In this document: positions 4,275 through 44,649 of the stretch, in pieces
Position numbering within the stretch: the first letter of the stretch is position 1
How the letters are laid out: each line of letters opens with the position of its first letter
Assembly: GCA_024404195.1 (NCBI GenBank)
Contig: JAKSQJ010000002.1
Span: 9,661-73,660, forward strand
Reading direction: 5' to 3'
Length of the DNA stretch: 64,000 nucleotides
Source of the DNA: Clostridia bacterium
GTDB lineage: Bacteria; Bacillota; Clostridia; Oscillospirales; Acutalibacteraceae
The notes under the pieces: generated by a model
What the model was told of the DNA's origin: nothing
The model's database searches: none
The model's input: the letters and a program-made list of their open reading frames with translations, nothing else
Made by a program: the position numbers and the translations under genes

Positions 4275-4303
4275 TTGACAAAATGCAAAATAGGTGTTAA
4301 TAT
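4275..4303 (+). promoter_or_regulatory. SigmaA-type promoter P1 (TTGACA-17-TAATAT)
   Basis: TTGACA at 4275-4280, a 17-nt spacer, and TAATAT at 4298-4303, directly upstream of T-box leader 1. Confidence 0.6.
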
Positions 4304-4309
4304 GGTTAA

Positions 4310-4590
4310 AATAATAAATGCGATGAAGATATTAAGCTTTGCTTTTATTGCTTTTCAGAGAGTCGGCGGCAGGTGAAAGCCGATAGGTCAGAAGCAAGGC
4401 ATCTCACATCTGAGCAGGAAGCCGGAAATTTAAGTATGGCTTTCCGGGTGAGCCCGTAACAGCTCGGGAGCTTGTTTGAGCTTCTTTGAGAGGTTGACAC
4501 CGTGCAACAATGTGGGTGGTACCGTGGTTAATTTTTTGTTAATCATCCCGCAGAAAGTTTAGGACTTTCTGCGGATTTTTCTTTTTTCGG
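4310..4590 (+). promoter_or_regulatory. T-box riboswitch leader 1, specifier CUC (Leu)
   Basis: The K-turn is UGC-GAU-GA ... GA-GCA. The AG bulge is AGAGAG and the distal loop is GGUGAAA. The specifier loop reads CUC-A (4403-4406), followed by CAUCU-GA-GCA. The T-box sequence AAUGUGGGUGGUACCGUGG lies at 4508-4526. The terminator CCGCAGAAAGU/ACUUUCUGCGG plus a U-run lies at 4547-4587. Confidence 0.85.
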
Positions 4591-4600
4591 AGGTATTGTT

Positions 4601-5983
4601 ATGAGAAAAATTAAGATTATTGACTATTCCTTAAAAGCGCTTAGCGACAAAAACTTGCTATTCAGGGAAAAGACGGCTATTGCCGAAAATGTGGATAATT
4701 TCGGGGTTGACGCAATAGAGCTTCCCGCCGCTCAAAACATCAAGGAAGATGCCATAATTTACGGAACAATATCCTCGGTTGCTCAAAACAGTGAAATTTG
4801 TCTTCCCGTCGGCTTTGACGAGGAGAAAATCGGCGAGGTTTTTGAGTGCATAAAGAGTGCCAAAAAGCCCTGCCTTCAGGTTGCGGTCCCCGTTTCAACA
4901 ACGACCATGGAATATACCTATCACTATAAAGCCGATAAAATGCTCAAAAAGGTTGACTCCCTTGTTAAAGCGGCAAAAAAATACTGCAAAAATATAGAAT
5001 TTGTCGCAATGGATGCAACAAGAGCCGACAAAGAATATCTTACCGAAATAATAAACACCGCAAAAAACGCAGGTGCAACGGCTGCAACCGTTTGCGACGA
5101 TGCGGGAATTATGACCCCCGAAGCTTTCGGTAATTTAATAAAAACTCTTACCGAAAAATGCGACCTGCCGATATATGTTAAGGTGTCAAACGAGCTTAAT
5201 ATGGCGGTGGCATGCGCTTACTATGCCGTTCTTTGCGGTGCGAGTGGAATAAAGGCGTCCGTTTCGGGCGAAAATGAGCTGAAAACCGCCGATATCGCCG
5301 CCGTTTTGGAGGCGCAAAAGGATGCTCTTCAAATATCCTTTAATCTTAAAACAACACAGCTTAAAAACGATATCGGTAAGCTTAAAAAGGTTGTTAAAAA
5401 AGTCCCCGAAACGAGCGAAACAAGCGCTTCGGACGACGGGCTTTTAATCAGTGCCGAAAGCACGCTTGCCGACATTGAAAAGGCGGCAAAAGCATTGGGT
5501 TATGAGCTTTCGGGCGAGGACATCGGAAAGGTTTATAAATCCCTTGTTCCTTTGTTTGAAAAAAGAACAGGTGTCGGAACAAAAGAGCTTGAAGCAATAA
5601 TAGCCATCGTGGCAAATGAGGCGCCCTCAACCTACCATCTTGACACATATAATATAAATATAAGCAATGTTTCGTCGTCTATGGCAAATGTTGTGCTTAA
5701 AAAGGACGATACTTTACTTGCCGGAATTGCAACGGGCGACGGCCCTATTGATGCCGCTTTCTTGGCTATTGAGCAGGGAACGGGACTTCATTATGAGCTT
5801 GACGGCCTTGAAATTTCGGCAGTTACCGAGGGTAAAGAGGCATTGGGCTCCGCCGTTGTCCGCCTTCGCAGCGAGGGTGTTCTCTATTCGGGAACGGGAC
5901 TTTCTTCCGATATTGTCGGAGCAAGTATAAGAGCATATATCAACGCCCTTAACAAAATCGTATATGAGGAGGGACTTGCTTGA
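4601..5983 (+). CDS. LeuA/HMGL-family protein with degenerate catalytic motifs but an intact LeuA C-terminal allosteric (dimerisation) domain
   Basis: The 460-aa protein has the overall layout of 2-isopropylmalate/citramalate synthase. DTTLRDGEQ is replaced by DYSLKALSD, and the HxHxD metal motif by VKVSNELNMAV. The C-terminal segment GDGPIDAAFLAIEQ...GTGLSSDIVGASIRAYINALNKI keeps the regulatory-domain pattern. The RBS is GGAGG. Confidence 0.7.
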   Translation: MRKIKIIDYSLKALSDKNLLFREKTAIAENVDNFGVDAIELPAAQNIKEDAIIYGTISSVAQNSEICLPVGFDEEKIGEVFECIKSAKKPCLQVAVPVSTTTMEYTYHYKADKMLKKVDSLVKAAKKYCKNIEFVAMDATRADKEYLTEIINTAKNAGATAATVCDDAGIMTPEAFGNLIKTLTEKCDLPIYVKVSNELNMAVACAYYAVLCGASGIKASVSGENELKTADIAAVLEAQKDALQISFNLKTTQLKNDIGKLKKVVKKVPETSETSASDDGLLISAESTLADIEKAAKALGYELSGEDIGKVYKSLVPLFEKRTGVGTKELEAIIAIVANEAPSTYHLDTYNINISNVSSSMANVVLKKDDTLLAGIATGDGPIDAAFLAIEQGTGLHYELDGLEISAVTEGKEALGSAVVRLRSEGVLYSGTGLSSDIVGASIRAYINALNKIVYEEGLA

Positions 5984-8427
5984 AGATAGTATTCTCAACA
6001 AAAGACCATAACGAAAAGTCCTTTGTAGAGCTTTGTAATTTTACAAAATCCTATAACTGCGCCGGTTTTGAGATTTTTGACGCAAAGAGTGAACAAAAAT
6101 ATCACAGCGACAGTATTTTCAGAAATAATCTTGTAAATGCAGGTAAAAGAAAGCTCTATAACAGAGGAATTTCCATTTCGGCGATTTCCTTTCCCTATGC
6201 GGTTGAAAGGGACGATGTTACCGCCGACCAGATATTGAGTTATGTTGATTTTGCCGTTGTTTCGGGTTGCGAAAATGTTATTCTTTTTATAGAAAATGAG
6301 CCCGATATTGAAAAGTTGACGGAAAAACTCGCTTTGGCGGTAAAAAAGGCGGAGGATAACGATATTTCCGTTCTTTTTGAAACAAAAAATTACCTTTCAA
6401 ATTCAAAAAACATCCTTAAAATAATAAACCATATTTCAAGCGCCGCTTTGGGTGCCGCCTGGAATATAAGAGAAACATATTTTGAGGCAAAAGAAACCGC
6501 CGACGAAACGATAGGAATTTTAGGCGCTTATATAAAATATGTGCGTTTAGGTGACCGAAAAGACGGCGTAAATACCCTTATAGGTCAGGGAAAATTACCG
6601 TTTGACGAGTTTTTGGATGCTTTGGCTTCGCTTAATTACGATTCTTTCGTTTGCGCTCTTTGGAATGACGAAATTACTGATGCGGATATTGTTATAACGC
6701 ATTTTGTAAACTTTATTTCCAGTGTTAAAGACGAGCGGAAAAATGCTAAAAAACTCTATTATAACCGTGATAAAAGCGGAACATTTCCGTATAAAAAATA
6801 TACCGTTGTAGATAAAACTTTTCCCCAAGTTCTTGATGATATGGTGGAATGTTATCCCGACCAATATGCCTTTAAGTATTCAACCCTCCAATATAAGAGG
6901 ACTTACAGCGAATTTCGTAAAGATGTTGATAAGGTTGCGGCGGCGCTTATTTCAATAGGTGTAAAGCCGGGGCATCATGTTGCGGTTTGGGCAACCAATG
7001 TTCCCGAATGGTTTTTAACCTTCTGGGCGGCAACAAAAATCGGCGCCGTTTTGGTTACCGTTAATACCGCTTATCGCATAAACGAGATTGAATATCTTTT
7101 GAGGCAGTCGGATACCCATACCCTTGTTATGATAGAAAACTGCAAGGATATTAACTACGGCGAAATAATAAGTGAGCTTTGCCCCGAGCTTAAAACCCTT
7201 AAAGCCGGTGAGCATTTATACAGTAAAAAACTGCCCTTCCTTAAAAATGTCATTACCGTCGGCTTTGATATGGCAGGTTGCCTTAATTGGAACAAGTTTT
7301 TGCTTCGTGCCGACAGTATTCCAAAAGCGGAGGTAAACAGGCGTGCCGCTATGGTTAAGCCCGACGATGTTGCGAATATGCAATATACATCGGGAACAAC
7401 CGGCTTCCCGAAGGGCGTTATGCTTACCCACCGAAACATTATAAATAACGGCAAGATAATAGGCGACCGTATGGACCTTTCAACCGCCGAGCGCATGATG
7501 ATTCAGGTGCCGATGTTCCATTGCTTCGGAATGGTGCTTTCAATGACATCAATGATGACTCACGGCGGAACATTATCACCGCTCCCCTATTTTTCGCCGA
7601 AGTCATCTCTTGCTTGCATAAACGCCGAAAAGATTACCTGCTTTAACGGTGTTCCAACTATGTTTATTGCGATGTTCTCTCACGAGGACTTCAAAAAAAC
7701 CGATTTTTCATATATGAGAACGGGTATTATGGCAGGGTCTAACTGCCCTCCCGAGCTTATGAAAAAGGCGGCAAAGGAAATGAATATGCGAGAAATCCTT
7801 TCGGTTTACGGTCAAACCGAGGCGTCCCCCGGTTGCACTATGGGCGAGGTAAACGAGGATTTGGAGCATAGAACAGAAACCGTCGGAAGTGCTTTTCCGC
7901 TTATTGAATGCAAAATCATTGACCCCGAAACGGGCGAGGATTTGCCGAACGGTCAAAGCGGCGAATTTGTTGTCCGTGGCTTTAATGTTATGAAGGGCTA
8001 TTATAAAATGCCCGCCGCAACAAAACAGGCGATTGATAAGGAAGGTTGGCTCCATTCGGGCGACCTTTGTATGAAAACCGAGGACGGCTATTATAAGGTA
8101 ACGGGCCGTCTTAAGGATATGATTATCCGAGGCGGAGAAAACATCTATCCCCGTGAAATTGAGGAATTTTATTTAACCCATGAAAAGATAAGGGATGTTC
8201 AGGTTGTCGGCGTTAAGGACGAAAGATACGGCGAAGAAGCATGTGCATTCATTATATTAAAGGAAAACGAAACCTCAACCGAAGCCGAAATGCGAGAGTT
8301 CGGTATGAAGCATATAGCAGGTCATAAGGTCCCCCGATATTTTGTATTTACCGATAGTTTCCCGATGAACGCCGCAGGAAAAATCTTAAAATACAAAATG
8401 AAGGAAGATTTTGAGAAAAATCTTTAA
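5980..8427 (+). CDS. Fusion protein: xylose-isomerase-like TIM-barrel domain + AMP-forming acyl-CoA ligase (FadD-like)
   Basis: An 815-aa ORF. Its TTG start overlaps the upstream stop (TTGA) and has a GAGGAGG RBS. The N-terminal ~245 aa resemble sugar-phosphate isomerase/epimerase TIM barrels. The C-terminal part has AMP-binding motifs YTSGTTGFPKGVMLTH, YGQTE, SGDLCMKTEDGYYKVTGRLKD and a terminal AAGKILK. Confidence 0.8.
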   Translation: MKIVFSTKDHNEKSFVELCNFTKSYNCAGFEIFDAKSEQKYHSDSIFRNNLVNAGKRKLYNRGISISAISFPYAVERDDVTADQILSYVDFAVVSGCENVILFIENEPDIEKLTEKLALAVKKAEDNDISVLFETKNYLSNSKNILKIINHISSAALGAAWNIRETYFEAKETADETIGILGAYIKYVRLGDRKDGVNTLIGQGKLPFDEFLDALASLNYDSFVCALWNDEITDADIVITHFVNFISSVKDERKNAKKLYYNRDKSGTFPYKKYTVVDKTFPQVLDDMVECYPDQYAFKYSTLQYKRTYSEFRKDVDKVAAALISIGVKPGHHVAVWATNVPEWFLTFWAATKIGAVLVTVNTAYRINEIEYLLRQSDTHTLVMIENCKDINYGEIISELCPELKTLKAGEHLYSKKLPFLKNVITVGFDMAGCLNWNKFLLRADSIPKAEVNRRAAMVKPDDVANMQYTSGTTGFPKGVMLTHRNIINNGKIIGDRMDLSTAERMMIQVPMFHCFGMVLSMTSMMTHGGTLSPLPYFSPKSSLACINAEKITCFNGVPTMFIAMFSHEDFKKTDFSYMRTGIMAGSNCPPELMKKAAKEMNMREILSVYGQTEASPGCTMGEVNEDLEHRTETVGSAFPLIECKIIDPETGEDLPNGQSGEFVVRGFNVMKGYYKMPAATKQAIDKEGWLHSGDLCMKTEDGYYKVTGRLKDMIIRGGENIYPREIEEFYLTHEKIRDVQVVGVKDERYGEEACAFIILKENETSTEAEMREFGMKHIAGHKVPRYFVFTDSFPMNAAGKILKYKMKEDFEKNL

Positions 8428-8437
8428 AAATTACCAC

Positions 8438-8466
8438 TTGACAAGTATTGTTTCGTGTGATACAAT
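8438..8466 (+). promoter_or_regulatory. SigmaA-type promoter P2 (TTGACA-17-TACAAT)
   Basis: TTGACA at 8438-8443, a 17-nt spacer, and TACAAT at 8461-8466. It begins 10 nt after the stop of the upstream ligase. Confidence 0.6.
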
Positions 8467-8472
8467 TTATCA

Positions 8473-8752
8473 GTAAATTGAATACCTATCAAACAAAAGC
8501 TATGATGAAGACGGAAAATTTATTGTAAAGCTTTTAGAGAGTCGGGGACGGTGGAAGCCCGACAGCCGGATATTTTTTCTTATCACTTCTGAGCCGAAAG
8601 GACGAAACAGCAGTAGTTCTTTCCGTGTGGGCTACGTTAACGCATACGACTTGTTAGAGTCTGAGGGGCACAGTTTTGTGCAATTTGAGTGGTAACGCGG
8701 GTTTAATTTTTAACTCGTCTCAAGGTTTCTTGGGACGGGTTTTATTTATTTT
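8473..8752 (+). promoter_or_regulatory. T-box riboswitch leader 2, specifier AUC (Ile)
   Basis: The AG bulge is AGAGAG and the distal loop is GGUGGAA. The specifier loop reads AUC-A (8582-8585), followed by CUUCU-GA-GC. The T-box sequence CAAUUUGAGUGGUAACGCGG lies at 8681-8700. The terminator CGUCUCAAG/CUUGGGACG plus a U-rich tail lies at 8714-8752. Confidence 0.85.
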
Positions 8753-8764
8753 CGGAGGTAATTT

Positions 8765-11032
8765 ATGAGCACACAAAATCCCATGTCGCAACTTTTGGAT
8801 ATTGCTTTTCGTATTAGAGAAATGCGAGAAATTATGGGTTATTCCGTCGCCGAAATGGCGGAAAAAACCGAGGTTTCCGTTGAGCAATACGAAAATTACG
8901 AAAACTGCAAAACCGATTTGCCTTTTACATTTGTTCATAAATGCGCACTTGTTTTCGGAATTGAGCTTACCGAACTTTTAGAGGGCAGAAGCGCCAAGCT
9001 TTCTTCCTATACCGTAACAAGAAAGGGCAACGGTCAGCAAACCGCCAAGGAAGACGGTATTGATATTGCAAACTTAGCACCCGAATTCAGAAATAAAATA
9101 GCCGAGCCATACTGGGTTAAGTATGATTATTCCGAGGAGCTTCAAAATAAGCCCATTCATTTAACTAACCACAGCGGTCAGGAATTTGACCTTGTTGTTT
9201 CGGGCTCTTTGATGGTGCAGGTAGGCACAAATACCGAAATTCTTAACGAGGGCGACAGTATTTACTATAATTCTTCAACACCTCACGGTATGATAGCCGT
9301 CGGCGGAAAGGATTGCGAATTTTTGGCAGTTGTTCTTCCGGGCGAGGACGAGCAGGAGGAAACTATCCGCACAAGTATTGCCGCCGCAAAACCCTCTAAA
9401 AAGTTGCTTTGCGAAAAATTCGTTAAGACAACCGAGGACGAAAACGGCGCTTTGCAGGATATTAAATTCGTTGATACCGATAAGTTTAATTTCGGCTTTG
9501 ATGTTGTTAATGCTATCGCAAATAAATACCCCGATAAGCTTGCGATGGTGCATATTGACAGAAACAAGAGGGAAAGACAGTTTACCTTTGACGATATAAA
9601 GAGAGAGTCGGCAAGATGCGCTAACTATTTTACAACTATGGGCATCAAAAAGGGCGACAAAGTAATGCTTGTTCTCAAAAGGCATTATCAGTTCTGGTTT
9701 GCTATGGTAGCACTTCATAAAATCGGCGCCGTCGCAATTCCCGCAACATTCTTACTTAAAGAGCACGATTTTGAGTATAGATTTAATGCCGCCGAAATTT
9801 CGGCTATTGTCTGCACTGCCGACGGCGATGTTGCCGAAATTGCCGAAAAAGCCGCAAAAAAATGCAAAACCGTTAAAACCAAAATCATGGTTGGCGGAAA
9901 TAGAGACGGTTGGCACGATTTTGATAATGAATATAAGGTTTATTCAAGCCATTTCCGCAGAAGTGCCGATACTCCCTGCGGTGATGACCCTGCAATCATC
10001 TTCTTCTCCTCGGGAACAACGGGCGAGCCAAAAATGGTTGAACATTCTCATACCTATCCGTTAGGTCATTTCGTAACCGCTAAATATTGGCATTGTTGCG
10101 AAAGGGACGGTCTTCACTTCACCATTTCCGACACCGGTTGGGGTAAATCCCTTTGGGGAAAACTTTACGGACAGTGGCTTTGCGAGGGTGCCGTATTTGT
10201 TTATGACTTTGACCGCTTTGACGCTTCTGATATTTTGCCGATGTTCAAAAAGTATAATGTTACAACATTCTGCGCTCCCCCTACCATGCTTCGTATGATG
10301 GTAAAAGAAGACCTTACAAAATATGATTTTTCGTCTGTTAAGCATATGACAACCGCAGGCGAGGCGCTTAATCCCGAGGTTGCAAAGCAGTTTAAGGAAG
10401 CAACCGGACTTACGATTTATGAGGGCTTCGGTCAAACCGAAACCACCCTTACGGTTGCAAATCTTGGCGGAACAAGGACAAAAATCGGCTCAATGGGCAA
10501 ACCTTCTCCGCAATATGAAATTGACATTGTTGACCATGACGATAAGCCGGTCGCAAACGGCGAAACGGGCGAAATCGTTATAAAACTTCAAAACGGCAAC
10601 CCCGTCGGTCTTTTCAGACAATACCTAAAAGAGCCCGAAAAAACCAAAGAGGTAAGAAGAAACAACCTTTATCATACGGGCGATACCGCTTGGCGAGATG
10701 AATCGGGATATTTTTGGTATGTCGGCAGGGTTGACGATATTATTAAATCGTCAGGTTACCGTATAGGGCCGTTTGAAATTGAAAATGTTATTATGGAGCT
10801 TCCGTATGTTCTTGAATGCGGTGTTTCCGCCGAGCCCGACGAAATAAGGGGTCAGATTGTTAAGGCAAGTATCGTTTTAACAAAGGGAACAAAGCCGAGC
10901 GAAGAACTCAAAAAGGAAATCCAGAATTATGTTAAGAGCCATACTGCTCCTTATAAATATCCCCGTCTTGTTGTGTTTAAGGACGAGCTTCCGAAAACCA
11001 ATAACGGAAAAATAATGCGCAGTTTACTGTAA
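8765..11032 (+). CDS. Fusion protein: XRE-family HTH + cupin domain + medium-chain (ACSM/MacS-like) AMP-forming acyl-CoA synthetase
   Basis: A 755-aa ORF. The N-terminus (IREMREIMGYSVAEMAEKTEVSVEQYENYE) is HTH_3-like. The cupin core is HSGQEFDLVVSGSLMVQVG...GDSIYYNSSTPHGM. The synthetase part has FFSSGTTGEPKMVEHSH, EGFGQTET, YHTGDTAWRDESGYFWYVGRVDD and a terminal NNGKIMR. Confidence 0.85.
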   Translation: MSTQNPMSQLLDIAFRIREMREIMGYSVAEMAEKTEVSVEQYENYENCKTDLPFTFVHKCALVFGIELTELLEGRSAKLSSYTVTRKGNGQQTAKEDGIDIANLAPEFRNKIAEPYWVKYDYSEELQNKPIHLTNHSGQEFDLVVSGSLMVQVGTNTEILNEGDSIYYNSSTPHGMIAVGGKDCEFLAVVLPGEDEQEETIRTSIAAAKPSKKLLCEKFVKTTEDENGALQDIKFVDTDKFNFGFDVVNAIANKYPDKLAMVHIDRNKRERQFTFDDIKRESARCANYFTTMGIKKGDKVMLVLKRHYQFWFAMVALHKIGAVAIPATFLLKEHDFEYRFNAAEISAIVCTADGDVAEIAEKAAKKCKTVKTKIMVGGNRDGWHDFDNEYKVYSSHFRRSADTPCGDDPAIIFFSSGTTGEPKMVEHSHTYPLGHFVTAKYWHCCERDGLHFTISDTGWGKSLWGKLYGQWLCEGAVFVYDFDRFDASDILPMFKKYNVTTFCAPPTMLRMMVKEDLTKYDFSSVKHMTTAGEALNPEVAKQFKEATGLTIYEGFGQTETTLTVANLGGTRTKIGSMGKPSPQYEIDIVDHDDKPVANGETGEIVIKLQNGNPVGLFRQYLKEPEKTKEVRRNNLYHTGDTAWRDESGYFWYVGRVDDIIKSSGYRIGPFEIENVIMELPYVLECGVSAEPDEIRGQIVKASIVLTKGTKPSEELKKEIQNYVKSHTAPYKYPRLVVFKDELPKTNNGKIMRSLL

Positions 11033-11039
11033 AAAACTG

Positions 11040-11068
11040 TTGACAAATAGGAATTCTTGTATTATACT
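11040..11068 (+). promoter_or_regulatory. SigmaA-type promoter P3 (TTGACA-17-TATACT)
   Basis: TTGACA at 11040-11045, a 17-nt spacer, and TATACT at 11063-11068. It begins 7 nt after the upstream stop codon. Confidence 0.6.
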
Positions 11069-11074
11069 TTGAGA

Positions 11075-11356
11075 ATAAAGGCAAAGACGAAGAGGACTTT
11101 ATTATTCCGAAATTTAGAGAGATAACGGTTGGTGAAAGTTATCGGTAGGGTAATTTGGTTGTAACTTCTGAGCTGAAGGGAAGAAAGCATTTTTGCAAGT
11201 AGAGCCCTTTCGTGTAGGCTGCGTTAATGCATACGGCTTGTTAGAGCCTGAGTGGCACTTTTTTGTGCAATTTGAGTGGTACCGCGGGTGTATTTTGATA
11301 TTTTTTACGCTCGTCTCAAAGTATTAAGCTTTGGGACGGGTGTTTTTTCGTTTTTT
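11075..11356 (+). promoter_or_regulatory. T-box riboswitch leader 3, specifier GUA (Val)
   Basis: The AG bulge is AGAGAG and the distal loop is GGUGAAA. The stem AGAGG/CUUCU closes the specifier loop, which reads GUA-A (11161-11164), followed by CUUCU-GA-GC. The T-box sequence CAAUUUGAGUGGUACCGCGGG lies at 11268-11287. The terminator CGUCUCAAAG/CUUUGGGACG plus a U-run ends near 11356. The 3' half is clearly paralogous to leader 2. Confidence 0.85.
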
Positions 11357-11378
11357 GTCCCGAACAGGAGGTTATGGT

Positions 11379-13667
11379 ATGCAAGAAATAAGCAATCTTG
11401 ATTATAAAATCAAGGAAATGGCGGGGCGTATTAAAGAGCTTCGTGAAATTGAGGGCGTTTCTCCCGAAGAAATGGCTCAAAAAACCGATGTTTCCGTCAG
11501 TGAATACCTTTCCTGCGAAAGCGGAGAAAGCGACTTAAACTTTGCATTTCTTTACCGTTGCGCATTGGCGCTTAATGTCAATGTTACCGATATAATTGAG
11601 GGTCACAGTCCTACCCTTAAGGCATTTACCGTTACAAAAAAAGGCAAGGGTCAGGAAATTGCGAATGCTCACGGTATGACATATTACAATATGGCTTATG
11701 CTTTCAAAAACAGAATTGCCGAGCCGCTTTATGTTAAATCAAATTACGACGAATCAGCCCAAACGAAAGAAATTGAGCTTACAACCCATGAGGGACAGGA
11801 GCTTGATATTATAATTTCTGGTCAGCTTCGTGTTCAGATAGGTGAGCATAGCGAGGTTTTAAGCGAGGGCGACAGTGTTTACTTTAATTCCTCAACCCCC
11901 CACGGTATGATAGCCGTCGGCGGTAAGGACTGCGAGTTTTATGCCATTGTCCTTAATCCTACGGGGGAACCCATTCCCGAGCTTATTCCGACAAAGGCGA
12001 TTGAGTTTGAAAAGGAAGTAAAGCAGGATACAAGCGACAGAGTTTACCGCAAGTATGTTGATATCGTTAAAAACGATAAGGGAACACCTACATCAATTAA
12101 ATTTAAGAACACAGATAAGTTTAACTTTGCCTTTGATGTTGTTGACGAAATGGCAAACAAAAACCCGAATAAACTCGCCATGCTTCATATTGACCGCAAC
12201 GAAACAGAGAGAAGATTTACCTTCCTTGATATGAAGAAAGAGTCGGCAAGATGCGCAAACTATTTCAGTTCTTTGGGAATTAAAAAGGGCGACAGAGTTA
12301 TGCTTGTTTTAAGGCGTAATTATCAGTTTTGGCCCATAATGTTAGGCCTTAATAAGTTGGGCGCTATTGCAATTCCCGCAACAAGCCAACTTCTTCCGCA
12401 TGACCTTGAATACAGATTTGATAAGGCGGGAGTTACCTCTATTGTCTGCACTTCGGACGATAATTCCCCCGATTCCGCCGACACTGCCGCCGCTACATAC
12501 GGTAAAATGAAAAACAAGATTATCGTAGGCGGTAAAAGAGACGGTTGGAGAGAATTTGATAAAGAATATAAGCGCTTCAGCTCAACCTATGAGCGAACAA
12601 AGGATTCTCCCTGCGGCGATGACCTTCTTCTTATGTTCTTTACTTCGGGAACTTCGGGTTATCCGAAAATTGCCGCTCATAACCATAAATATCCTTTCGG
12701 ACATTTTGTTACGGCTAAATATTGGCATTGCTGCGACCCCGACGGACTTCATTTTACAATTTCCGATACGGGCTGGGCTAAGGCAATGTGGGGCAAGCTT
12801 TACGGTCAGTGGTTCTGCGAAGCCGCAACCTTTGTTTATGACTTTGACCGTTTTGATGCATCAAAGATAATGCCGATGTTCGCAAAGCATAAAATAACAA
12901 CCTTTTGCGCTCCGCCTACTATGCTTCGTATGATGATAAAGCAGGATTTATCAAATTATGATTTTTCGTCCGTTAAGCATATGACAACCGCAGGCGAGGC
13001 ACTTAACCCCGAGGTTTATAAGCAATTTAAGAATTTGACGGGACTTCATATTATTGAGGGCTTCGGTCAAAGCGAATCTACCATGATGATAGGCAATCTT
13101 CGTGGCGCTCCGCATAAAATCGGCTCAATGGGTAAACCCTGCCCGATTTATGATATTGACCTTTTGGACAGCGACGGTAACCCCGTTGCCATCGGTGAAA
13201 CGGGCGAAATTTGCGTAAATGTTAAAAACGGTGCGCCCTGCGGACTGTTTACCGGTTACTATAACGACCCCGAAAAGACCGACGAGGCAATTCACGACGG
13301 TTATTACCATACCGGCGATACCGCTTGGAAGGACGAGGACGGTTTCTATTGGTTTGTCGGCAGAGTTGACGATGTTATTAAATCATCGGGCTACCGTATA
13401 GGACCCTTTGAAATAGAAAGCGTTATTATGGAGCTTCCCTATGTTCTTGAATGCGGCGTTTCCCCCGAGCCCGATGAAATAAGGGGACAAATTGTTAAAG
13501 CAAGTATTGTTTTAACAAAGGGAACTAAGCCGACCGAGGAACTTAAAAAAGAAATCCAAAACTATGTTAAACAGCATACCGCTCCTTATAAATACCCCCG
13601 TCTTGTTGTGTTCAGAGATGAACTTCCGAAAACAACAAGCGGTAAGATAATGCGAAATAAGCTTTAA
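11379..13667 (+). CDS. Fusion protein: XRE-family HTH + cupin domain + medium-chain AMP-forming acyl-CoA synthetase (paralog of 8765..11032)
   Basis: I prefer the ATG at 11379 (RBS AGGAGG) over the TTG at 11331, which lies inside the T-box terminator. The domain order matches the upstream paralog and the C-terminal ~90 aa are nearly identical. Motifs present are FFTSGTSGYPKIAAHNH, EGFGQSES and YHTGDTAWKDEDGFYWFVGRVDD. Confidence 0.85.
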   Translation: MQEISNLDYKIKEMAGRIKELREIEGVSPEEMAQKTDVSVSEYLSCESGESDLNFAFLYRCALALNVNVTDIIEGHSPTLKAFTVTKKGKGQEIANAHGMTYYNMAYAFKNRIAEPLYVKSNYDESAQTKEIELTTHEGQELDIIISGQLRVQIGEHSEVLSEGDSVYFNSSTPHGMIAVGGKDCEFYAIVLNPTGEPIPELIPTKAIEFEKEVKQDTSDRVYRKYVDIVKNDKGTPTSIKFKNTDKFNFAFDVVDEMANKNPNKLAMLHIDRNETERRFTFLDMKKESARCANYFSSLGIKKGDRVMLVLRRNYQFWPIMLGLNKLGAIAIPATSQLLPHDLEYRFDKAGVTSIVCTSDDNSPDSADTAAATYGKMKNKIIVGGKRDGWREFDKEYKRFSSTYERTKDSPCGDDLLLMFFTSGTSGYPKIAAHNHKYPFGHFVTAKYWHCCDPDGLHFTISDTGWAKAMWGKLYGQWFCEAATFVYDFDRFDASKIMPMFAKHKITTFCAPPTMLRMMIKQDLSNYDFSSVKHMTTAGEALNPEVYKQFKNLTGLHIIEGFGQSESTMMIGNLRGAPHKIGSMGKPCPIYDIDLLDSDGNPVAIGETGEICVNVKNGAPCGLFTGYYNDPEKTDEAIHDGYYHTGDTAWKDEDGFYWFVGRVDDVIKSSGYRIGPFEIESVIMELPYVLECGVSPEPDEIRGQIVKASIVLTKGTKPTEELKKEIQNYVKQHTAPYKYPRLVVFRDELPKTTSGKIMRNKL

Positions 13668-13677
13668 GAGGGCGTTT

Positions 13678-14400
13678 ATGAAAATATCGGTTATTCAAAT
13701 GGATGTTAAGCTTAATGCTCCCGATATTAACTTTAATAAGGCGAAAAAACTTATCAAAGAAGCGGTAAGTGAGGACCCCGATGTAATCGTTTTGCCCGAA
13801 ACCTTTAATGTCGGCTTTTTTCCGAAGGATATAAAAAGGGAATTTTGCGATATTGACGGAAAAAGGGTAAAAGAAGAAATCGGAAAACTTGCAAAAGAGT
13901 ATAATGTTAATATCGTTGCCGGCTCTGTTGCGAACATAAAAAACGGTAATCTTTATAATACCGCCTATGTTTTTTCAAGGTCGGGCGAGCAAATAGCCGA
14001 ATACGATAAAATCAATTTGTTTTCGGCTATGGACGAGGATAAATACTTTAATAAGGGCGATAAAACCGTTCGTTTTTATCTTGACGGGCATCCCTGCACA
14101 CTTATTATTTGCTATGATATCCGCTTCCCCGAAATTATAAGAAAAGCAACGGCAAATGAGCCGACTGACCTTTTGTTTATCTTATCCGAATGGCCGAAAG
14201 TCAGAATAAACGAACTAACCGCTCTTGTTACCGAAAGGGCAACGGAAAACAGAATGTTTGCCGTTTGCTCAAACTCCTGCGGAAAGGCAAACGATGTAAA
14301 ATATGGCGGAAATTCGGTTATTGTTGACCCGCTCGGCAATATTCTCATAAAAGCAGAAGAAACCGAAAGCATCATAACCGCAAACTGCGATATACAATAA
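13678..14400 (+). CDS. Carbon-nitrogen hydrolase (Nit/omega-amidase, YafV/MtnU-like)
   Basis: A 240-aa ORF. The E-K-C triad context is visible: VLPETFN, YDKINLF and LIICYDIRFPE. The start lies 10 nt after the upstream stop, so the gene is co-transcribed. Confidence 0.75.
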   Translation: MKISVIQMDVKLNAPDINFNKAKKLIKEAVSEDPDVIVLPETFNVGFFPKDIKREFCDIDGKRVKEEIGKLAKEYNVNIVAGSVANIKNGNLYNTAYVFSRSGEQIAEYDKINLFSAMDEDKYFNKGDKTVRFYLDGHPCTLIICYDIRFPEIIRKATANEPTDLLFILSEWPKVRINELTALVTERATENRMFAVCSNSCGKANDVKYGGNSVIVDPLGNILIKAEETESIITANCDIQ

Positions 14401-14420
14401 ATTTTAAGTAGGAATAAACA

Positions 14421-15092
14421 ATGCGAGATTATAAGCGACTTACAATAATATGCGGACATTACGGAAGCGGTAAAACAAATATCGCCGTAAATATGGCGTT
14501 AGAGCTTTGCAAAATCCGTGAAAATGTTGCCGTTGCCGACCTTGATATTGTTAATCCTTATTTCAGAACAAAGGACAGCGAGGAAGATTTTAAGGCAAAC
14601 GGAATAAAACTTATTTGTTCGCAGTTTGCAAATACAAATCTTGATTTACCGTCGCTTCCTGCCGATTTATATTCAATAACCGATGATAAGGAAACCTCGG
14701 TTATTCTTGATATCGGCGGTGATGACAGGGGTGCTTTTGCTTTGGGCAGATTAAGCCCCGAAATAATCAAAGAAAATAACTATGATATGTATTATGTCAT
14801 CAATAAATACCGTCCCTTAACTCCCGATGCCGAGTCGGCTTATGAGATAATGCTTGAAATTGAAGCGGCTTGCGGAATTAAGTTTACGGGAATTCTCAAC
14901 AACTCAAATTTGGGCTCGCAAACTTCGGCGGAAGATGTTCTTAATTCTTTGGAGTTTGCGGATAGATTATCCGAAATTTCTTCTTTGCCTGTTAAAGCCA
15001 CCTGCATAGAAAAACGGCTTGAAGACGAGCTTAAAGATAAAATTCCAAACTTGTTTTCAATGAAATTGCAAAACAAAATAATAGACGGTTAA
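14421..15092 (+). CDS. P-loop NTPase of unknown function, UreG/HypB (G3E)-like motif pattern
   Basis: A 223-aa ORF with Walker A GHYGSGKTN, a Walker B-like VILDIGGDDRG (compare UreG ESGGDNL) and INKY at the position of NKxD. Confidence 0.5.
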   Translation: MRDYKRLTIICGHYGSGKTNIAVNMALELCKIRENVAVADLDIVNPYFRTKDSEEDFKANGIKLICSQFANTNLDLPSLPADLYSITDDKETSVILDIGGDDRGAFALGRLSPEIIKENNYDMYYVINKYRPLTPDAESAYEIMLEIEAACGIKFTGILNNSNLGSQTSAEDVLNSLEFADRLSEISSLPVKATCIEKRLEDELKDKIPNLFSMKLQNKIIDG

Positions 15093-15184
15093 TAAACCGA
15101 TTATTGTGTTAAAAATTTTGAGGACTTGACAGCGAAATGTTGCCTTAGCTCTTAAAAGTATATAAATTGAAAGGAAAGATGATT

Positions 15185-15391: not shown

Positions 15392-15397
15392 TAAATT

Positions 15398-17766: not shown

Positions 17767-17787
17767 TACTGAAAGGAAGAGTTTTTT

Positions 17788-18849
17788 ATGGAAATTAAAA
17801 TTATCAAAAAGCAAAATCCTACCTTAAAGCCGGGCGAAGAATACGGCTTCGGACGAGTATTTACCGACCATATGTTTGTTATGGATTATGACAGCGAAAA
17901 CGGTTGGCATGATGCCCGTATAGTTCCGTTTGACAGAATTTCAATCCATCCTGCATCAACCGTTCTTCACTACGGCGCAGAAATATTTGAGGGACTTAAA
18001 GCATATAGGCGTGCCGACGGCGGCGTTCAGCTTTTCAGACCTATTGAAAATATCCGCCGTATGAACAACTCGGCCGAGCGTCTTTGCTTACCGCAGATTG
18101 ACGAAGATATGGCTATGGATATCCTTACAACCTTTATTTCTCACGAAAAAGAGTGGACTCCGTCCGACCCCGGCACTACACTTTACATCCGTCCGTTTAT
18201 GTATGGTAACGATGAACAGCTCGGTGTTCATGCCGTAAAGCATGCAACCTTTATGATAATCGCATCACCTACCGGAAGCTACTATAAGCAGGGCTTCCAG
18301 CCGGTTCGCATTATGATAGAAGATACCGATGTCCGAGCAGTTCGCGGCGGAACAGGTTATGCTAAATGCGGCGGTAACTATGCCGCAAGCACCCGTGCAG
18401 GCGAAAAGGCAGAACAGCAGGGCTATTCTCAGGTTCTTTGGCTTGACGGTGTTGAACATAAGTATGTTGAAGAAGTAGGCGCTATGAATGTTATGTTCAA
18501 GATTAACGGCGAGATAGTAACTCCGGCGCTTACCGGTTCTATTCTTCCGGGTGTTACAAGAAAGTCATGCGTTGAGGCTCTTAAGAAAGAGGGTTACACC
18601 GTAAACGAGCGCCTTTTGAGCATTGACGAGTTAGCAGAAGCTATGAAAAACGGCACCTTAGAGGAAGCTTGGGGTTGCGGAACTGCCGCAGTTATTTCAC
18701 CGATTGGCGAGCTTTGCTATAAGGGTGTTAAATATGCAATTAACGACGGTAAGATAGGTCCTGTTACCCAGCACCTTTACGATAAGCTTACCGGTATTCA
18801 GTGGGGCAGAGTTGAGGACGAGTTCGGTTGGACTTATCCGATTGACTGA
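17788..18849 (+). CDS. ilvE: Branched-chain amino acid aminotransferase
   Basis: A 353-aa fold-type IV aminotransferase. Motifs seen are EGLKAYR, TGYAKCGGNYAAS, EEVGAMNVMF and LPGVTRKS. Confidence 0.85.
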   Translation: MEIKIIKKQNPTLKPGEEYGFGRVFTDHMFVMDYDSENGWHDARIVPFDRISIHPASTVLHYGAEIFEGLKAYRRADGGVQLFRPIENIRRMNNSAERLCLPQIDEDMAMDILTTFISHEKEWTPSDPGTTLYIRPFMYGNDEQLGVHAVKHATFMIIASPTGSYYKQGFQPVRIMIEDTDVRAVRGGTGYAKCGGNYAASTRAGEKAEQQGYSQVLWLDGVEHKYVEEVGAMNVMFKINGEIVTPALTGSILPGVTRKSCVEALKKEGYTVNERLLSIDELAEAMKNGTLEEAWGCGTAAVISPIGELCYKGVKYAINDGKIGPVTQHLYDKLTGIQWGRVEDEFGWTYPID

Positions 18850-40638: not shown

Positions 40639-40640
40639 TT

Positions 40641-42566: not shown

Positions 42567-42568
42567 TT

Positions 42569-44586: not shown

Positions 44587-44649
44587 AATAATACCTCTTT
44601 TCGCAATTTGTATAATTGTATGCAATTATACTCGTATATATGAATTCTG

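What the first reader, a model, noticed from the sequence alone, without database searches (positions are those of the whole stretch)
4601..5983. LeuA paralog that has lost its catalytic motifs but kept the leucine-binding regulatory domain, as first gene behind the Leu T-box
I compared the protein with the LeuA sequence from memory.
- The DTTLRDGEQ substrate/metal motif is DYSLKALSD here. Arg becomes Lys, the metal Asp becomes Ala, and Glu and Gln are lost.
- The VHxHxDxGLAV metal motif is VKVSNELNMAV, so both His are lost.
- GERAGN is GENELK.
- The C-terminal ~130 aa still follow the LeuA allosteric-domain pattern (GDGPIDAAFLAIEQ, EGKEALGSAVVRL, GTGLSSDIVGASIRAYINALNKI).

The stop overlaps the TTG start of the TIM-barrel-ligase gene (TTGA), which implies translational coupling and possibly a complex.

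Inference: this is a pseudoenzyme repurposed as a leucine-sensing (feedback) subunit for the downstream ligase. That would give the Leu branch protein-level control on top of the T-box.
Basis: partly seen in the sequence, partly recalled or inferred. Interest (0 to 1): 0.75.

Follow-up and report, generated by a model that had tools for sequence, protein, structure and literature searches.

The report
Dead LeuA copy partnered with isovalerate-type ligase
This gene encodes a copy of the leucine-pathway enzyme LeuA that has lost its catalytic machinery but kept its amino-acid-sensing domain, and in hundreds of gut and rumen bacteria it is always made together with an acyl-CoA ligase behind a leucine-starvation RNA switch, so it probably acts as the leucine sensor of a pathway that builds leucine from isovalerate.

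Summary
ORF 4601-5983 has a LeuA fold (HMGL-like barrel plus LeuA_dimer domain). It lacks the Arg and metal Asp of DTTLRDGEQ, both metal His residues and part of GERAGN. It also lacks the whole 33-residue subdomain I that carries the catalytic His motif.

It is not a decaying gene. At least 584 species genomes carry a relative, and about 106 clusters at 50% identity belong to the family. None of these has both His residues or subdomain I. The former active-site positions vary freely, while the regulatory domain is the most conserved part (58% mean pairwise identity against 33% for the barrel).

In 78 of 78 loci that could be evaluated, a fusion of a xylose-isomerase-like TIM barrel and an acyl-CoA ligase follows, usually 1 nt after the stop. 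A T-box with a CUC (Leu) specifier precedes the gene in 60 of 76 upstream regions examined.

The window holds three T-boxes (Leu, Ile, Val). Each leads a different acyl-CoA ligase, and a 2-oxoacid:ferredoxin oxidoreductase and a branched-chain aminotransferase follow. This looks like a locus that makes branched-chain amino acids from branched short-chain acids.

Leucine sensing and feedback control of the ligase is the best-supported mechanism, but it is inferred and not shown. I found no description in the searched literature.

The parts
4275..4303 (+). sigma-70-like promoter TTGACA-17-TAATAT upstream of the Leu T-box
   Evidence: consensus scan, 10 of 12 matches with a TG extension; a consensus match only
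4314..4553 (+). T-box leader with specifier codon CUC (Leu) at 4403-4405
   Evidence: Rfam RF00230, 112.4 bits against a cutoff of 93. The specifier was read from the 8-nt specifier loop GCAUCUCA in the cmscan alignment
4548..4584 (+). T-box terminator hairpin (12-bp stem) followed by a T-run
   Evidence: terminator scan and sequence
4601..5983 (+). LeuA-like pseudoenzyme, 460 aa (P0001, annotated 'hypothetical protein MJ080_00825', Clostridia bacterium MAG)
4601..5365 (+). degenerate DRE-TIM (HMGL-like) barrel, residues 1-255. The metal Asp, both His and part of GERAGN are lost. Family-specific conserved residues are F21, P97, E104, Y105 and K110
   Evidence: Pfam HMGL-like covers residues 21-253; alignments; Foldseek match to 3ewb at rmsd 1.8 A
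5366..5620 (+). linker plus retained subdomain II, residues 256-340. Subdomain I is deleted, and residues 266-280 are predicted disordered
   Evidence: alignment to E. coli LeuA; pLDDT profile
5621..5980 (+). LeuA allosteric/dimerisation domain, residues 341-460. G379, G381, G433, D437, A449 and N451 are invariant; G416 is conserved in 99% of representatives and aligns with E. coli G462
   Evidence: Pfam LeuA_dimer covers residues 328-453 at 6e-25; conservation across 106 cluster representatives
5966..5973 (+). Shine-Dalgarno GAGGAGGG for the ligase, embedded in the last codons (YEEG) of the LeuA-like gene
   Evidence: sequence. The same GAGGAG lies before the ligase start in the related loci whose junction sequences were printed
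5980..8427 (+). 815-aa fusion of a xylose-isomerase-like TIM barrel (5980-6789) and an AMP-forming acyl-CoA ligase (6790-8427). The TTG start overlaps the TGA stop of the LeuA-like gene
   Evidence: Pfam AP_endonuc_2, AMP-binding and AMP-binding_C; NCBIfam PRK12583 at 655 bits; AF2 model pLDDT 90.7 and Foldseek matches to ketose 3-epimerases; putative metal ligands are E/N/R/L here
8493..8725 (+). second T-box, specifier AUC (Ile)
   Evidence: Rfam 102.6 bits
8765..11032 (+). HTH_3 + Cupin_2 + MbcS-like acyl-CoA ligase, 755 aa
11075..11321 (+). third T-box, specifier GUA (Val); below the Rfam gathering score
   Evidence: 86.8 bits against a cutoff of 93, E = 1e-19
11331..13667 (+). HTH_3 + Cupin_2 + MbcS-like acyl-CoA ligase, 778 aa
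15167..17766 (+). 2-oxoacid:ferredoxin oxidoreductase: delta 15167-15391, alpha 15398-16465, beta 16465-17229, gamma 17230-17766
   Evidence: Pfam POR_N/PFOR_II, TPP_enzyme_C and POR; NCBIfam delta-subunit-like hit
17788..18849 (+). branched-chain amino acid aminotransferase
   Evidence: NCBIfam NF009897, 466.9 bits against a cutoff of 307

Best explanation
The gene encodes a non-catalytic descendant of 2-isopropylmalate synthase.

**What the protein keeps and what it has lost.** It keeps the TIM barrel, subdomain II and the C-terminal LeuA allosteric/dimerisation domain. It has lost the metal site, the substrate Arg and the whole of subdomain I.

**How it is expressed.** It is co-translated in a fixed two-gene module with an acyl-CoA ligase that carries an extra N-terminal xylose-isomerase-like TIM barrel.

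**Proposed pathway.** The module is induced by uncharged tRNA-Leu through a CUC T-box. It forms the leucine branch of a pathway that activates exogenous branched short-chain acids and converts them to amino acids:
1. Isovalerate is activated to isovaleryl-CoA.
2. A ferredoxin oxidoreductase reductively carboxylates the CoA ester to the 2-oxoacid, here 2-ketoisocaproate.
3. A branched-chain aminotransferase converts the 2-oxoacid to the amino acid.

**Proposed mechanism.** The LeuA-like protein dimerises through its regulatory domains. It binds free L-leucine in the pocket between the N-termini of the two conserved helices (GDGPID and G.G.S.DIV). Through its barrel and subdomain II it then restrains the ligase, probably by contact with the ligase's TIM domain. 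[quoted passage not shown]

**Shown.**
- The fold and the loss of catalytic residues.
- The conservation pattern across the family.
- The gene pairing and translational coupling.
- The T-box specificity.
- The locus content.

**Inferred.**
- Isovalerate as the ligase substrate.
- Leucine binding.
- Complex formation.
- Inhibition of the ligase.
For: **Loss of catalysis.**
- The alignment to E. coli LeuA shows R to K, metal D to A, HxH to KxS, a 4-residue deletion in GERAGN and deletion of subdomain I.
- None of the 106 cluster representatives has both His residues or subdomain I, and the former active-site positions vary freely across the family.
- LeuA equivalog models score far below their cutoffs.
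- A review table lists R80A and R80K among the M. tuberculosis IPMS substitutions that destroy activity (PMC10464499).
- The accessory domain is needed for IPMS catalysis (PMC9860122).
- An intact DRE-TIM paralog in the same window (43204-44625) keeps every motif, which serves as an internal control.

**The gene is functional, not decaying.**
- At least 584 species genomes carry a relative.
- Full-length homologs run from 28% to 68% identity.
- The regulatory domain has 58% mean pairwise identity, against 33% for the barrel.

**Sensor features are retained.**
- LeuA_dimer matches at 6e-25.
- G379, G381, G433, D437 and N451 are invariant.
- G416 aligns with E. coli G462, the position of the feedback-deregulated allele G462D.
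- In M. tuberculosis IPMS the leucine carboxylate sits between the N-termini of two helices of this domain (PMC11057210). Those helix starts are the most conserved motifs here.
- An excised PF08502 domain works as an autonomous amino-acid recognition element (PMC13381585).

**Partnership with the ligase.**
- A TIM-ligase fusion lies directly downstream in 78 of 78 evaluable loci.
- The same arrangement holds for distant members at 38%, 39%, 33% and 28% identity.
- The gap between stop and start is 1 nt in 47 of 78 loci, and at most 11 nt or overlapping in 74 of 78. In the junctions printed, the ligase Shine-Dalgarno lies inside the last codons of the LeuA-like gene.

**Leucine logic.**
- The CUC specifier is present in 60 of 76 upstream regions.
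- Rfam finds a T-box directly upstream in 15 of 19 loci tested.

**Pathway context.**
- Leu, Ile and Val T-boxes each lead a different ligase, followed by the oxidoreductase and the aminotransferase.
- The oxidoreductase alpha and beta subunits (12 loci each) and the aminotransferase (14 loci) lie within 6 kb of the module.
- In L086 the oxidoreductase, the aminotransferase and the module lie consecutively on one strand, 12 to 96 nt apart.
- Leucine synthesis by carboxylation of isovalerate is known rumen physiology (PMC7356843).
Against: - There is no direct evidence of leucine binding, of a complex, or of any effect on the ligase.
- PF08502 domains can be Ile-specific (CimA), so the ligand is not proven.
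- No natural fusion of the LeuA-like protein with the ligase appeared among the 120 closest homologs or the 150 cluster representatives.
- One distant member (P0234, L083) is not next to a ligase.
- A 255-residue barrel with its own family-specific invariant residues (F21, E104, Y105, K110) is more than a pure leucine sensor needs, so the barrel may have a second role.
- The Ile and Val ligases have no such partner.
- The ligase substrate is unassigned. It falls below every NCBIfam cutoff, and its closest solved structures are generic acyl- or feruloyl-CoA ligases.
Confidence: 0.5

Rival explanations
1. The protein is an obligate structural or activating subunit of the ligase and does not act as an amino-acid sensor. 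On this view the dead barrel and the LeuA_dimer domain only provide dimerisation, stability, substrate specificity, or a docking platform that hands isovaleryl-CoA to the ferredoxin oxidoreductase.
For: - Strict pairing and translational coupling.
- The barrel has its own conserved residues at the C-terminal ends of its strands and in the beta4-alpha4 loop: P97, S99, E104, Y105, K110 and D138.
- The ligase TIM domain is also degenerate in this clade, which suggests two former enzymes now used as interaction modules.
- The oxidoreductase is often adjacent.
Against: - The regulatory domain is by far the most conserved part, and what is conserved are exactly the LeuA ligand-pocket glycines and helix N-termini, not only surface residues.
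- Dimerisation alone would not need G416 or the GDGP motif to stay conserved at 93 to 100% across the family.
Confidence: 0.22
2. The protein is a leucine (or 2-ketoisocaproate) sensor that acts on a target other than the ligase. Candidate targets are the oxidoreductase, the aminotransferase or a transporter. On this view the protein is merely co-expressed with the ligase.
For: - Regulatory-domain conservation.
- The Leu T-box.
- One family member is not adjacent to a ligase.
Against: - Adjacency to the ligase is 78 of 78, whereas the oxidoreductase and aminotransferase are within 6 kb in only about 14 of 80 loci.
- A 1-nt stop-to-start spacing is typical of subunits made in fixed ratio.
Confidence: 0.12
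3. The protein is still an enzyme with new, metal-independent chemistry in the remodelled barrel. It might act, for example, on isovaleryl-CoA, isovaleryl-AMP or 2-ketoisocaproate.
For: - Conserved polar residues remain at barrel strand ends: D8, E40, S99, D138, R141, D166, S196 and K218 within the close subfamily.
- Distant members keep the Arg, the metal Asp and the EDA Glu (P0167, P0178).
Against: - Across the whole family the former active-site positions are not conserved. The Arg site is R, K, C, Q and others, and the His sites are many different residues.
- Subdomain I, which caps the active site and supplies the catalytic His in LeuA, is deleted in all members.
- The barrel evolves much faster than the sensor domain.
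Confidence: 0.1
4. The gene is a decaying leuA pseudogene or a mis-called ORF with no function.
For: - Loss of all catalytic motifs.
- Annotation as 'hypothetical protein'.
Against: - Intact full-length ORFs exist in at least 584 species genomes and in about 106 clusters at 50% identity.
- The AF2 model is confident.
- Synteny, the T-box and the embedded Shine-Dalgarno are all conserved.
Confidence: 0.01

Closest known systems
2-isopropylmalate synthase LeuA (DRE-TIM metallolyase, EC 2.3.3.13), short bacterial form (TIGR00973 / PRK00915)
   Same: - HMGL-like TIM barrel, subdomain II and the C-terminal PF08502 regulatory/dimerisation domain.
- The closest sequence and structure matches are LeuA.
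- The regulatory-domain hallmark residues are shared, including the position of the E. coli feedback-resistance mutation G462D.
   Different: - No metal ligands, no substrate Arg, a truncated GERAGN motif and no subdomain I.
- Scores less than half of every LeuA cutoff.
- Not in a leuBCD operon; always next to a TIM-barrel/acyl-CoA ligase fusion.
- The conservation pattern is unusual: the regulatory domain is far more conserved than the barrel.
HisZ, the catalytically dead histidyl-tRNA synthetase paralog that acts as the histidine-sensing regulatory subunit of short-form ATP phosphoribosyltransferase HisG (from established knowledge, not tested here)
   Same: The logic is the same. A paralog of an enzyme that recognises the pathway's amino acid has lost catalysis. 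It is proposed to serve as the allosteric end-product sensor for the first committed enzyme of that amino acid's synthesis.
   Different: - Unrelated fold and a different partner enzyme.
- For HisZ the complex and the histidine inhibition are experimentally established. Here both are inferred.
Citramalate synthase CimA regulatory (LA, PF08502) domain
   Same: It belongs to the same domain family. The isolated domain has been shown to act as an autonomous, amino-acid-specific recognition element (PMC13381585).
   Different: CimA binds isoleucine and regulates its own catalytic barrel. Here the barrel is dead, and the genetic context (CUC T-box) points to leucine.
MbcS / short branched-chain acyl-CoA synthetases (S. 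aureus; NF047394)
   Same: The two neighbouring ligases behind the Ile and Val T-boxes have MbcS as their best match (about 445 bits). MbcS activates branched short-chain carboxylic acids (PMC10026030 and PMC11167679, listed).
   Different: - MbcS feeds fatty-acid synthesis and has no HTH/cupin domain, no TIM domain and no LeuA-like partner.
- The ligase paired with the LeuA-like protein belongs to a different subfamily (PRK12583-like).
Reductive carboxylation of isovalerate to leucine in rumen bacteria
   Same: The locus content fits the physiology described for rumen microbes (PMC7356843): a ligase, a 2-oxoacid:ferredoxin oxidoreductase, a branched-chain aminotransferase and amino-acid-specific T-boxes. 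The carriers are rumen and hindgut Clostridia.
   Different: The physiology is old knowledge. I found no paper that assigns these genes, the T-box control or a LeuA-like accessory protein to it.

Membership tests
2-isopropylmalate synthase (LeuA), DRE-TIM metallolyase | HMGL-like (beta/alpha)8 barrel | tested here: met
   Pfam PF00682 at 1.3e-32; Foldseek match to the LeuA barrel 3ewb at rmsd 1.8 A
2-isopropylmalate synthase (LeuA), DRE-TIM metallolyase | Divalent-metal ligands: the Asp of DTTLRDGEQ and the two His of HxHxDxG | tested here: not met
   The Asp is Ala and the HxH is KxS in the query. None of the 106 family representatives has both His
2-isopropylmalate synthase (LeuA), DRE-TIM metallolyase | Substrate-binding Arg and the Glu of the D-R-E signature | tested here: not met
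   The Arg is Lys and the Glu/Gln are Ser/Asp (DYSLKALSD). R80K is listed among activity-destroying substitutions in M. tuberculosis IPMS
2-isopropylmalate synthase (LeuA), DRE-TIM metallolyase | Accessory subdomain I with the catalytic His motif (AHxSGIHQDG) | tested here: not met
   There is a 33-residue deletion relative to E. coli LeuA, and subdomain I is absent in all 106 representatives
2-isopropylmalate synthase (LeuA), DRE-TIM metallolyase | C-terminal PF08502 regulatory/dimerisation domain | tested here: met
   Pfam LeuA_dimer at 6e-25, covering profile positions 5-130 of 131
2-isopropylmalate synthase (LeuA), DRE-TIM metallolyase | Score above the curated equivalog cutoffs | tested here: not met
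   The best hit, NF002086, scores 231 bits against a cutoff of 532. TIGR00973 scores 198 bits against a cutoff of 599
2-isopropylmalate synthase (LeuA), DRE-TIM metallolyase | Claisen condensation of acetyl-CoA with 2-ketoisovalerate | not testable with these tools
   This needs an enzyme assay. The sequence predicts no activity
T-box-regulated leucine-supply gene | T-box leader with a Leu specifier codon and a terminator directly upstream | tested here: met
   RF00230 at 112 bits with specifier CUC, and a terminator at 4548-4574. The T-box motif together with the CUC specifier is present in 60 of 76 upstream regions examined (window plus 75 related loci)
Pseudoenzyme allosteric regulatory subunit (HisZ-like logic) | Loss of catalytic residues under continued purifying selection | tested here: met
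Pseudoenzyme allosteric regulatory subunit (HisZ-like logic) | Retained binding of the end-product amino acid | tested here: inconclusive
   The pocket-forming motifs and the residue equivalent to E. coli G462 are conserved in 93 to 100% of representatives. However, I had no coordinates or binding data, and PF08502 can bind Ile as well as Leu
Pseudoenzyme allosteric regulatory subunit (HisZ-like logic) | Stoichiometric complex with the regulated enzyme | not testable with these tools
   There is only genetic evidence: adjacency in 78 of 78 loci and a 1-nt stop-to-start spacing. Complex prediction was not possible with the tools available
Pseudoenzyme allosteric regulatory subunit (HisZ-like logic) | End-product inhibition of the partner that depends on the pseudoenzyme | not testable with these tools
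   This needs ligase kinetics with and without the protein and with and without leucine
Pathway from branched short-chain acids to branched-chain amino acids by reductive carboxylation | Acyl-CoA ligase, 2-oxoacid:ferredoxin oxidoreductase and branched-chain aminotransferase encoded together | tested here: met
   Window 5980-18849. The same genes lie consecutively on one strand in L086 and are adjacent in about 14 loci
Pathway from branched short-chain acids to branched-chain amino acids by reductive carboxylation | Ligase specificity for isovalerate and oxidoreductase activity in the carboxylating direction | not testable with these tools
   The ligase falls below all NCBIfam cutoffs. The substrate is inferred from the Leu T-box and the locus context

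The most novel reading that the evidence does not exclude
A large, unannotated family of LeuA-derived pseudoenzymes acts as the free-leucine sensor of a previously unassigned gene set for the classic rumen route from isovalerate to leucine. The protein docks onto a second degenerate TIM barrel fused to the isovalerate-CoA ligase. In this clade the former metal site of that barrel has been rebuilt with invariant Arg/Asn/Tyr residues. The protein switches the ligase off when leucine is bound. An allosteric domain would thus have been transplanted from the first enzyme of the de novo pathway to the first enzyme of the salvage pathway, layered on T-box control. The HTH-cupin modules fused to the Ile and Val ligases would play the analogous role for those branches.
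Probability: 0.35. Interest if true: 0.8.

Novelty: new variant of a known kind. Interest (0 to 1): 0.68.

Why it matters
If the proposed mechanism is right, four things follow.
- It shows an allosteric module being moved between pathways through a pseudoenzyme. The sensor of the de novo leucine route (LeuA) would have been recycled to control a salvage route whose first enzyme is an acyl-CoA ligase. No amino-acid-sensing subunit is known to me for that enzyme class.
- It gives gene-level handles for the conversion of branched short-chain acids into branched-chain amino acids. These handles are three amino-acid-specific T-boxes, three ligases, the oxidoreductase and the aminotransferase. The process matters for rumen nutrition and for gut amino-acid and branched short-chain fatty acid budgets, and it is carried here by hundreds of mostly uncultured Clostridia species.
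- It would correct annotation. The family is currently labelled 'hypothetical protein' or, wrongly, '2-isopropylmalate synthase'. The wrong label inflates predicted leucine prototrophy in metabolic models of gut bacteria.
- The protein is a natural, compact candidate for leucine-specific biosensor design, which was named as an unmet need in PMC13381585.

Tried and rejected
**Literature.** Nine full-text searches covered reductive carboxylation with isovalerate and leucine, T-box with isovalerate and ferredoxin oxidoreductase, pseudoenzyme with isopropylmalate synthase, MbcS, and IPMS regulatory domain. None found a paper describing this protein family or module.

**Papers not held.** The primary structural paper on leucine-bound M. 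tuberculosis LeuA and two kinetic papers are not held. I therefore could not map individual leucine-contact residues. I used only the general description in PMC11057210 and the E. coli G462D allele.

**Homolog search with the ligase TIM domain.** It returned only 79 contig-end fragments of the same ligase family. It could not show whether TIM-ligases exist without a LeuA-like partner.

**Complex prediction.** Model coordinates are not exposed either, so I could not inspect the pocket or an interface.

**leuABCD in carrier genomes.** I therefore could not test whether the carrier genomes lack leuABCD.

**Glu to Met in the EDA motif.** I considered this change as evidence of inactivity and rejected it. 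An otherwise intact LeuA representative (P0255) also has Met there.

**Decaying pseudogene.** I considered this reading and rejected it on the conservation data.

**Degradation or lipid-primer function.** I considered this for the ligases and consider it unlikely. T-boxes induce genes when the cognate tRNA is uncharged, and an aminotransferase and an oxidoreductase share the locus.
Full report
**1.

The ORF 4601..5983 (+) encodes 460 aa. It starts at an ATG with a GGAGG 7 nt upstream.

Pfam finds an HMGL-like barrel (residues 21-253, 1.3e-32) and the LeuA allosteric/dimerisation domain PF08502 (residues 328-453, 6e-25). The best LeuA equivalog model in NCBIfam scores only 231 bits against a cutoff of 532.

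I took E. coli LeuA from the annotated K-12 record rather than from memory and aligned it with the query and 119 homologs. The alignment shows the following:
- DTTLRDGEQ becomes DYSLKALSD. The Arg becomes Lys, the metal Asp becomes Ala, and the Glu and Gln are lost.
- HTHDDLG becomes VKVSNELN, so both metal His residues are lost.
- GIGERAGN carries a 4-residue deletion.
- A 33-residue deletion removes subdomain I with the AHSSGIHQDG motif.

Direct phmmer alignments to the Listeria and Neisseria LeuA structures show the same His losses.

An AlphaFold2 model (mean pLDDT 83.5) is a LeuA fold. Its top Foldseek matches are M. tuberculosis LeuA (3hps, 1sr9, 3fig) and the Listeria LeuA barrel (rmsd 1.8 A over 271 columns).

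A second DRE-TIM protein in the same window (43204-44625, minus strand) keeps DTSLRDGQQ, HGHND, GIGERTGN and AGIHADG. The degeneration is therefore specific to this gene and is not a property of the genome.

One correction is needed. The Glu to Met change in the EDA motif is not diagnostic, because an otherwise intact LeuA representative also has Met there.

**2. It is a large, conserved family and not a decaying gene**

- The exact protein is a 'hypothetical protein' of a Clostridia bacterium MAG, and more than 100 homologs of about 460 aa share 49-68% identity with it.
- A scan of one genome per species found at least 584 genomes that encode a relative. The best 80 are almost all rumen or hindgut Clostridia MAGs (Oscillospiraceae, Acutalibacteraceae, Ruminococcaceae, Monoglobaceae), with one Sphaerochaetaceae and one Lachnospiraceae.
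- An exhaustive HMMER search of 1.84 billion cluster representatives returned about 106 full-length clusters of 453-497 aa at 28-47% identity. True LeuA sequences (503-516 aa, matched in two stretches) appear only below these.
- In none of the 106 representatives are both His ligands present, and all lack subdomain I. The former active-site positions vary freely. The Arg position is R, K, C, Q and others, and the metal Asp is present only sporadically.
- The C-terminal regulatory domain is the most constrained part. Its mean pairwise identity is 58%, against 33% for the barrel and 32% for the linker.
- G379, G381, G433, D437, A449 and N451 are invariant.
- G416 is conserved in 99% of representatives. 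It aligns with E. coli G462, the site of the feedback-deregulated allele G462D used in PMC6345581.
- In M. tuberculosis LeuA, leucine binds in a hydrophobic pocket at the regulatory-domain dimer interface, with its carboxylate between the N-termini of two helices (PMC11057210). The two helix starts of this domain (GDGPID, G.G.S.DIV) are the most conserved motifs in the family.
- The barrel also has family-specific conserved residues that LeuA lacks: F21 and K110 are invariant, and P97, E104 and Y105 are present in 97 to 99% of representatives.

**3. The gene is one half of a fixed two-gene module**

- Of the 80 related loci, two contigs end right after the LeuA-like gene and could not be evaluated.
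- In the other 78, the next gene on the same strand is a fusion of a xylose-isomerase-like TIM barrel with an AMP-forming acyl-CoA ligase.
- The ligase part is about 78% identical across these loci, against about 51% for its TIM domain and about 50% for the LeuA-like protein.
- The gap between the LeuA-like stop and the ligase start is 1 nt in 47 of 78 loci. It is at most 11 nt or overlapping in 74 of 78.
- In the junctions printed, the ligase Shine-Dalgarno (GAGGAG) lies inside the last codons of the LeuA-like gene.
- In the window the arrangement is TTGA, with the TTG at 5980-5982, the TGA at 5981-5983 and GAGGAGGG at 5966-5973.
- The pairing persists in distant family members: P0178 (38%), P0167 (39%), P0217 (33%) and P0254 (28%). 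One distant member, P0234, has no ligase beside it.
- No natural fusion of the two proteins was seen.

**4. Regulation and pathway context**

The upstream element is a T-box (112 bits). Its 8-nt specifier loop, GCAUCUCA, gives the codon CUC (Leu) followed by the usual purine. A 12-bp terminator with a T-run and a promoter-like site complete the leader.

I examined 76 upstream regions: the window plus 75 loci with at least 330 nt of upstream sequence. Of these, 62 carry the T-box sequence motif and 60 have CTC in the specifier column. Rfam confirms a T-box directly upstream in 15 of 19 loci tested.

The window has two further T-boxes:
- One with specifier AUC (Ile) lies at 8493-8725.
- One with specifier GUA (Val) lies at 11075-11321. 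It scores 86.8 bits, just under the gathering score.
- Each leads an MbcS-like acyl-CoA ligase that carries N-terminal HTH and cupin domains.

Behind the Val ligase come the following genes:
- a CN-hydrolase;
- a P-loop protein;
- a four-subunit 2-oxoacid:ferredoxin oxidoreductase;
- a branched-chain aminotransferase, which passes its NCBIfam cutoff (467 against 307 bits).

The oxidoreductase alpha and beta subunits (12 loci each) and the aminotransferase (14 loci) lie within 6 kb of the module, and the HTH-cupin ligases in about 30. In L086 the oxidoreductase, the aminotransferase, an Amidohydro_2 gene, the LeuA-like gene and the TIM-ligase lie consecutively on one strand, 12 to 96 nt apart.

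The simplest reading is a locus that turns exogenous isovalerate, 2-methylbutyrate and isobutyrate into Leu, Ile and Val. The steps would be CoA activation, reductive carboxylation and transamination. Each ligase would be induced when its cognate tRNA is uncharged. Leucine formation by carboxylation of isovalerate is long-known rumen physiology (PMC7356843). The substrate assignments of the three ligases are inference.

**5. The partner's extra domain**

The ligase's N-terminal 270 residues model confidently (pLDDT 90.7) as a xylose-isomerase-like TIM barrel. The closest structures are ketose 3-epimerases, UlaE and YcjR (TM about 0.7-0.78).

The four positions that align with the epimerase metal ligands (Glu, Asp, His, Glu) behave differently in different lineages:
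- They are intact in the distant relatives L082 and L086.
- They read E/N/R/L in the window. In the 69 close loci they read E (68 of 69), N (66), R (65) and A, D or L, with R164 and Y187 invariant.

The identity of the epimerase ligands rests on my memory of the D-tagatose 3-epimerase literature. In this clade both halves of the module therefore contain a former enzyme barrel that has lost its metal site.

**6. Mechanism**

The best-supported explanation is that the LeuA-like protein is a non-catalytic accessory subunit of the leucine-branch ligase, and that its conserved business end is the LeuA regulatory domain. The most likely role is sensing free leucine and feeding back on the ligase.

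The case rests on these points:
- The ligand-pocket motifs are the most constrained part of the protein.
- The module is tied to a Leu-specific T-box.
- A PF08502 domain excised from CimA works as a stand-alone amino-acid recognition element (PMC13381585).

That same paper shows that PF08502 can be Ile-specific, so the ligand is inferred and not shown.

In LeuA, leucine binding rigidifies the accessory and regulatory domains against the partner barrel (PMC9860122). By analogy, the retained barrel and subdomain II could clamp the ligase's TIM domain or its mobile C-terminal domain. That step is speculation.

My confidence by step is as follows:
- Not a Claisen-condensing enzyme: about 0.9.
- Functional partner of the ligase: about 0.8.
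- Leucine-dependent feedback regulator: about 0.5.

**7. Rivals**

- A purely structural, activating or channelling subunit (0.22). It is favoured by the barrel's own conserved residues and by the doubly degenerate barrels. It is disfavoured by the pocket-specific conservation.
- A leucine sensor with another target (0.12). It is disfavoured by the 78 of 78 ligase adjacency against about 14 of 80 for the oxidoreductase and aminotransferase.
- A new metal-independent enzyme (0.10). It is disfavoured by the free variation of the former active-site positions and by the universal loss of subdomain I.
- A pseudogene (about 0.01). It is excluded by conservation.

**8. Comparison with known systems and novelty**

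The protein descends from LeuA but fails four defining features of the enzyme: the metal ligands, the D-R-E residues, subdomain I and the equivalog scores. It should not be annotated as 2-isopropylmalate synthase, as one source does.

In logic it resembles HisZ, the dead histidyl-tRNA synthetase paralog that confers histidine feedback on HisG. That comparison rests on established knowledge and was not tested here.

Nine literature searches found no description of a LeuA pseudoenzyme, of its pairing with an acyl-CoA ligase, or of T-box control of such ligases. I rate it a new variant of a known kind: a pseudoenzyme regulator built on the LeuA family.

Interest is 0.68. The family is large, unannotated and ecologically relevant, and the hypothesis is directly testable. 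The key functional claims are still inferred.

**9. Limits**

- I could not predict the complex.
- I could not inspect model coordinates.
- I could not map individual leucine-contact residues, because the primary papers are not held.
- I could not test whether carrier genomes lack leuABCD.
- The homolog search with the TIM domain returned only fragments.

Noticed in passing
window 8493-13667: Two more T-boxes, with specifiers AUC (Ile) and GUA (Val), each precede an MbcS-like acyl-CoA ligase fused to N-terminal HTH_3 and Cupin_2 domains. This fusion of a DNA-binding/cupin module to a ligase is unusual. It may be the regulatory counterpart of the LeuA-like protein for the other two branches. 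The Val T-box scores 86.8 bits, below the Rfam gathering score of 93.
   Followed up: partly
window 5980-6789; L082 2319-3150; L086 6410-7250: The xylose-isomerase-like TIM domain fused to the ligase has lost three of its four putative metal ligands. They read E/N/R/L in the window; in the 69 close loci they read E (68 of 69), N (66), R (65) and A, D or L, and R164 and Y187 are invariant. Distant relatives keep E/D/H/E. The original catalytic function of this domain is unknown.
   Followed up: partly
L082 2-448; L086 4111-4905: In the two loci whose ligase TIM domain is intact, an Amidohydro_2 (PF04909) gene sits immediately upstream of the LeuA-like gene. It is absent from the window.
   Followed up: no
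L084 2968-4533: A distant copy of the module (28% identity) lies in an organism that reads TGA as Trp. In-frame TGA codons fall exactly at conserved Trp positions of the ligase.
   Followed up: partly
L012, L014, L019, L022, L023, L024, L027, L030: This subgroup of loci lacks the T-box upstream of the LeuA-like gene. In seven of the eight the aminotransferase, the P-loop gene and the oxidoreductase follow the ligase directly; the L023 contig ends inside the ligase. Protein-level control, if it exists, may be the only leucine-specific control here.
   Followed up: partly
window 39490-44625 (minus strand): An intact DRE-TIM synthase without a regulatory domain (43204-44625) lies beside a GntR regulator, an aconitate hydratase (passes the PRK07229 cutoff) and an isocitrate/isopropylmalate-dehydrogenase-family protein. 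This is probably a Re-citrate-synthase-type branch to 2-oxoglutarate.
   Followed up: partly
window 13678-15092: A CN-hydrolase (nitrilase superfamily) and a weakly ParA/CbiA-like P-loop protein sit between the Val ligase and the oxidoreductase. The P-loop gene precedes the oxidoreductase in 13 related loci, which suggests a conserved accessory role.
   Followed up: no
P0248 (L085 6001-7536), P0268, P0269: These LeuA-length proteins (503-516 aa) retain subdomain I but have partly degenerate motifs. P0248 reads DTTLCDGEQ and has RxY in place of HxH. It lies next to an aconitase-family gene. They may be intermediates or alignment artefacts.
   Followed up: no
window 18915-22764 (minus strand): A split cobalamin-dependent methionine synthase (794 aa plus a separate 197-aa activation-domain protein) and a methylenetetrahydrofolate reductase converge on the BCAA locus.
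   Followed up: no
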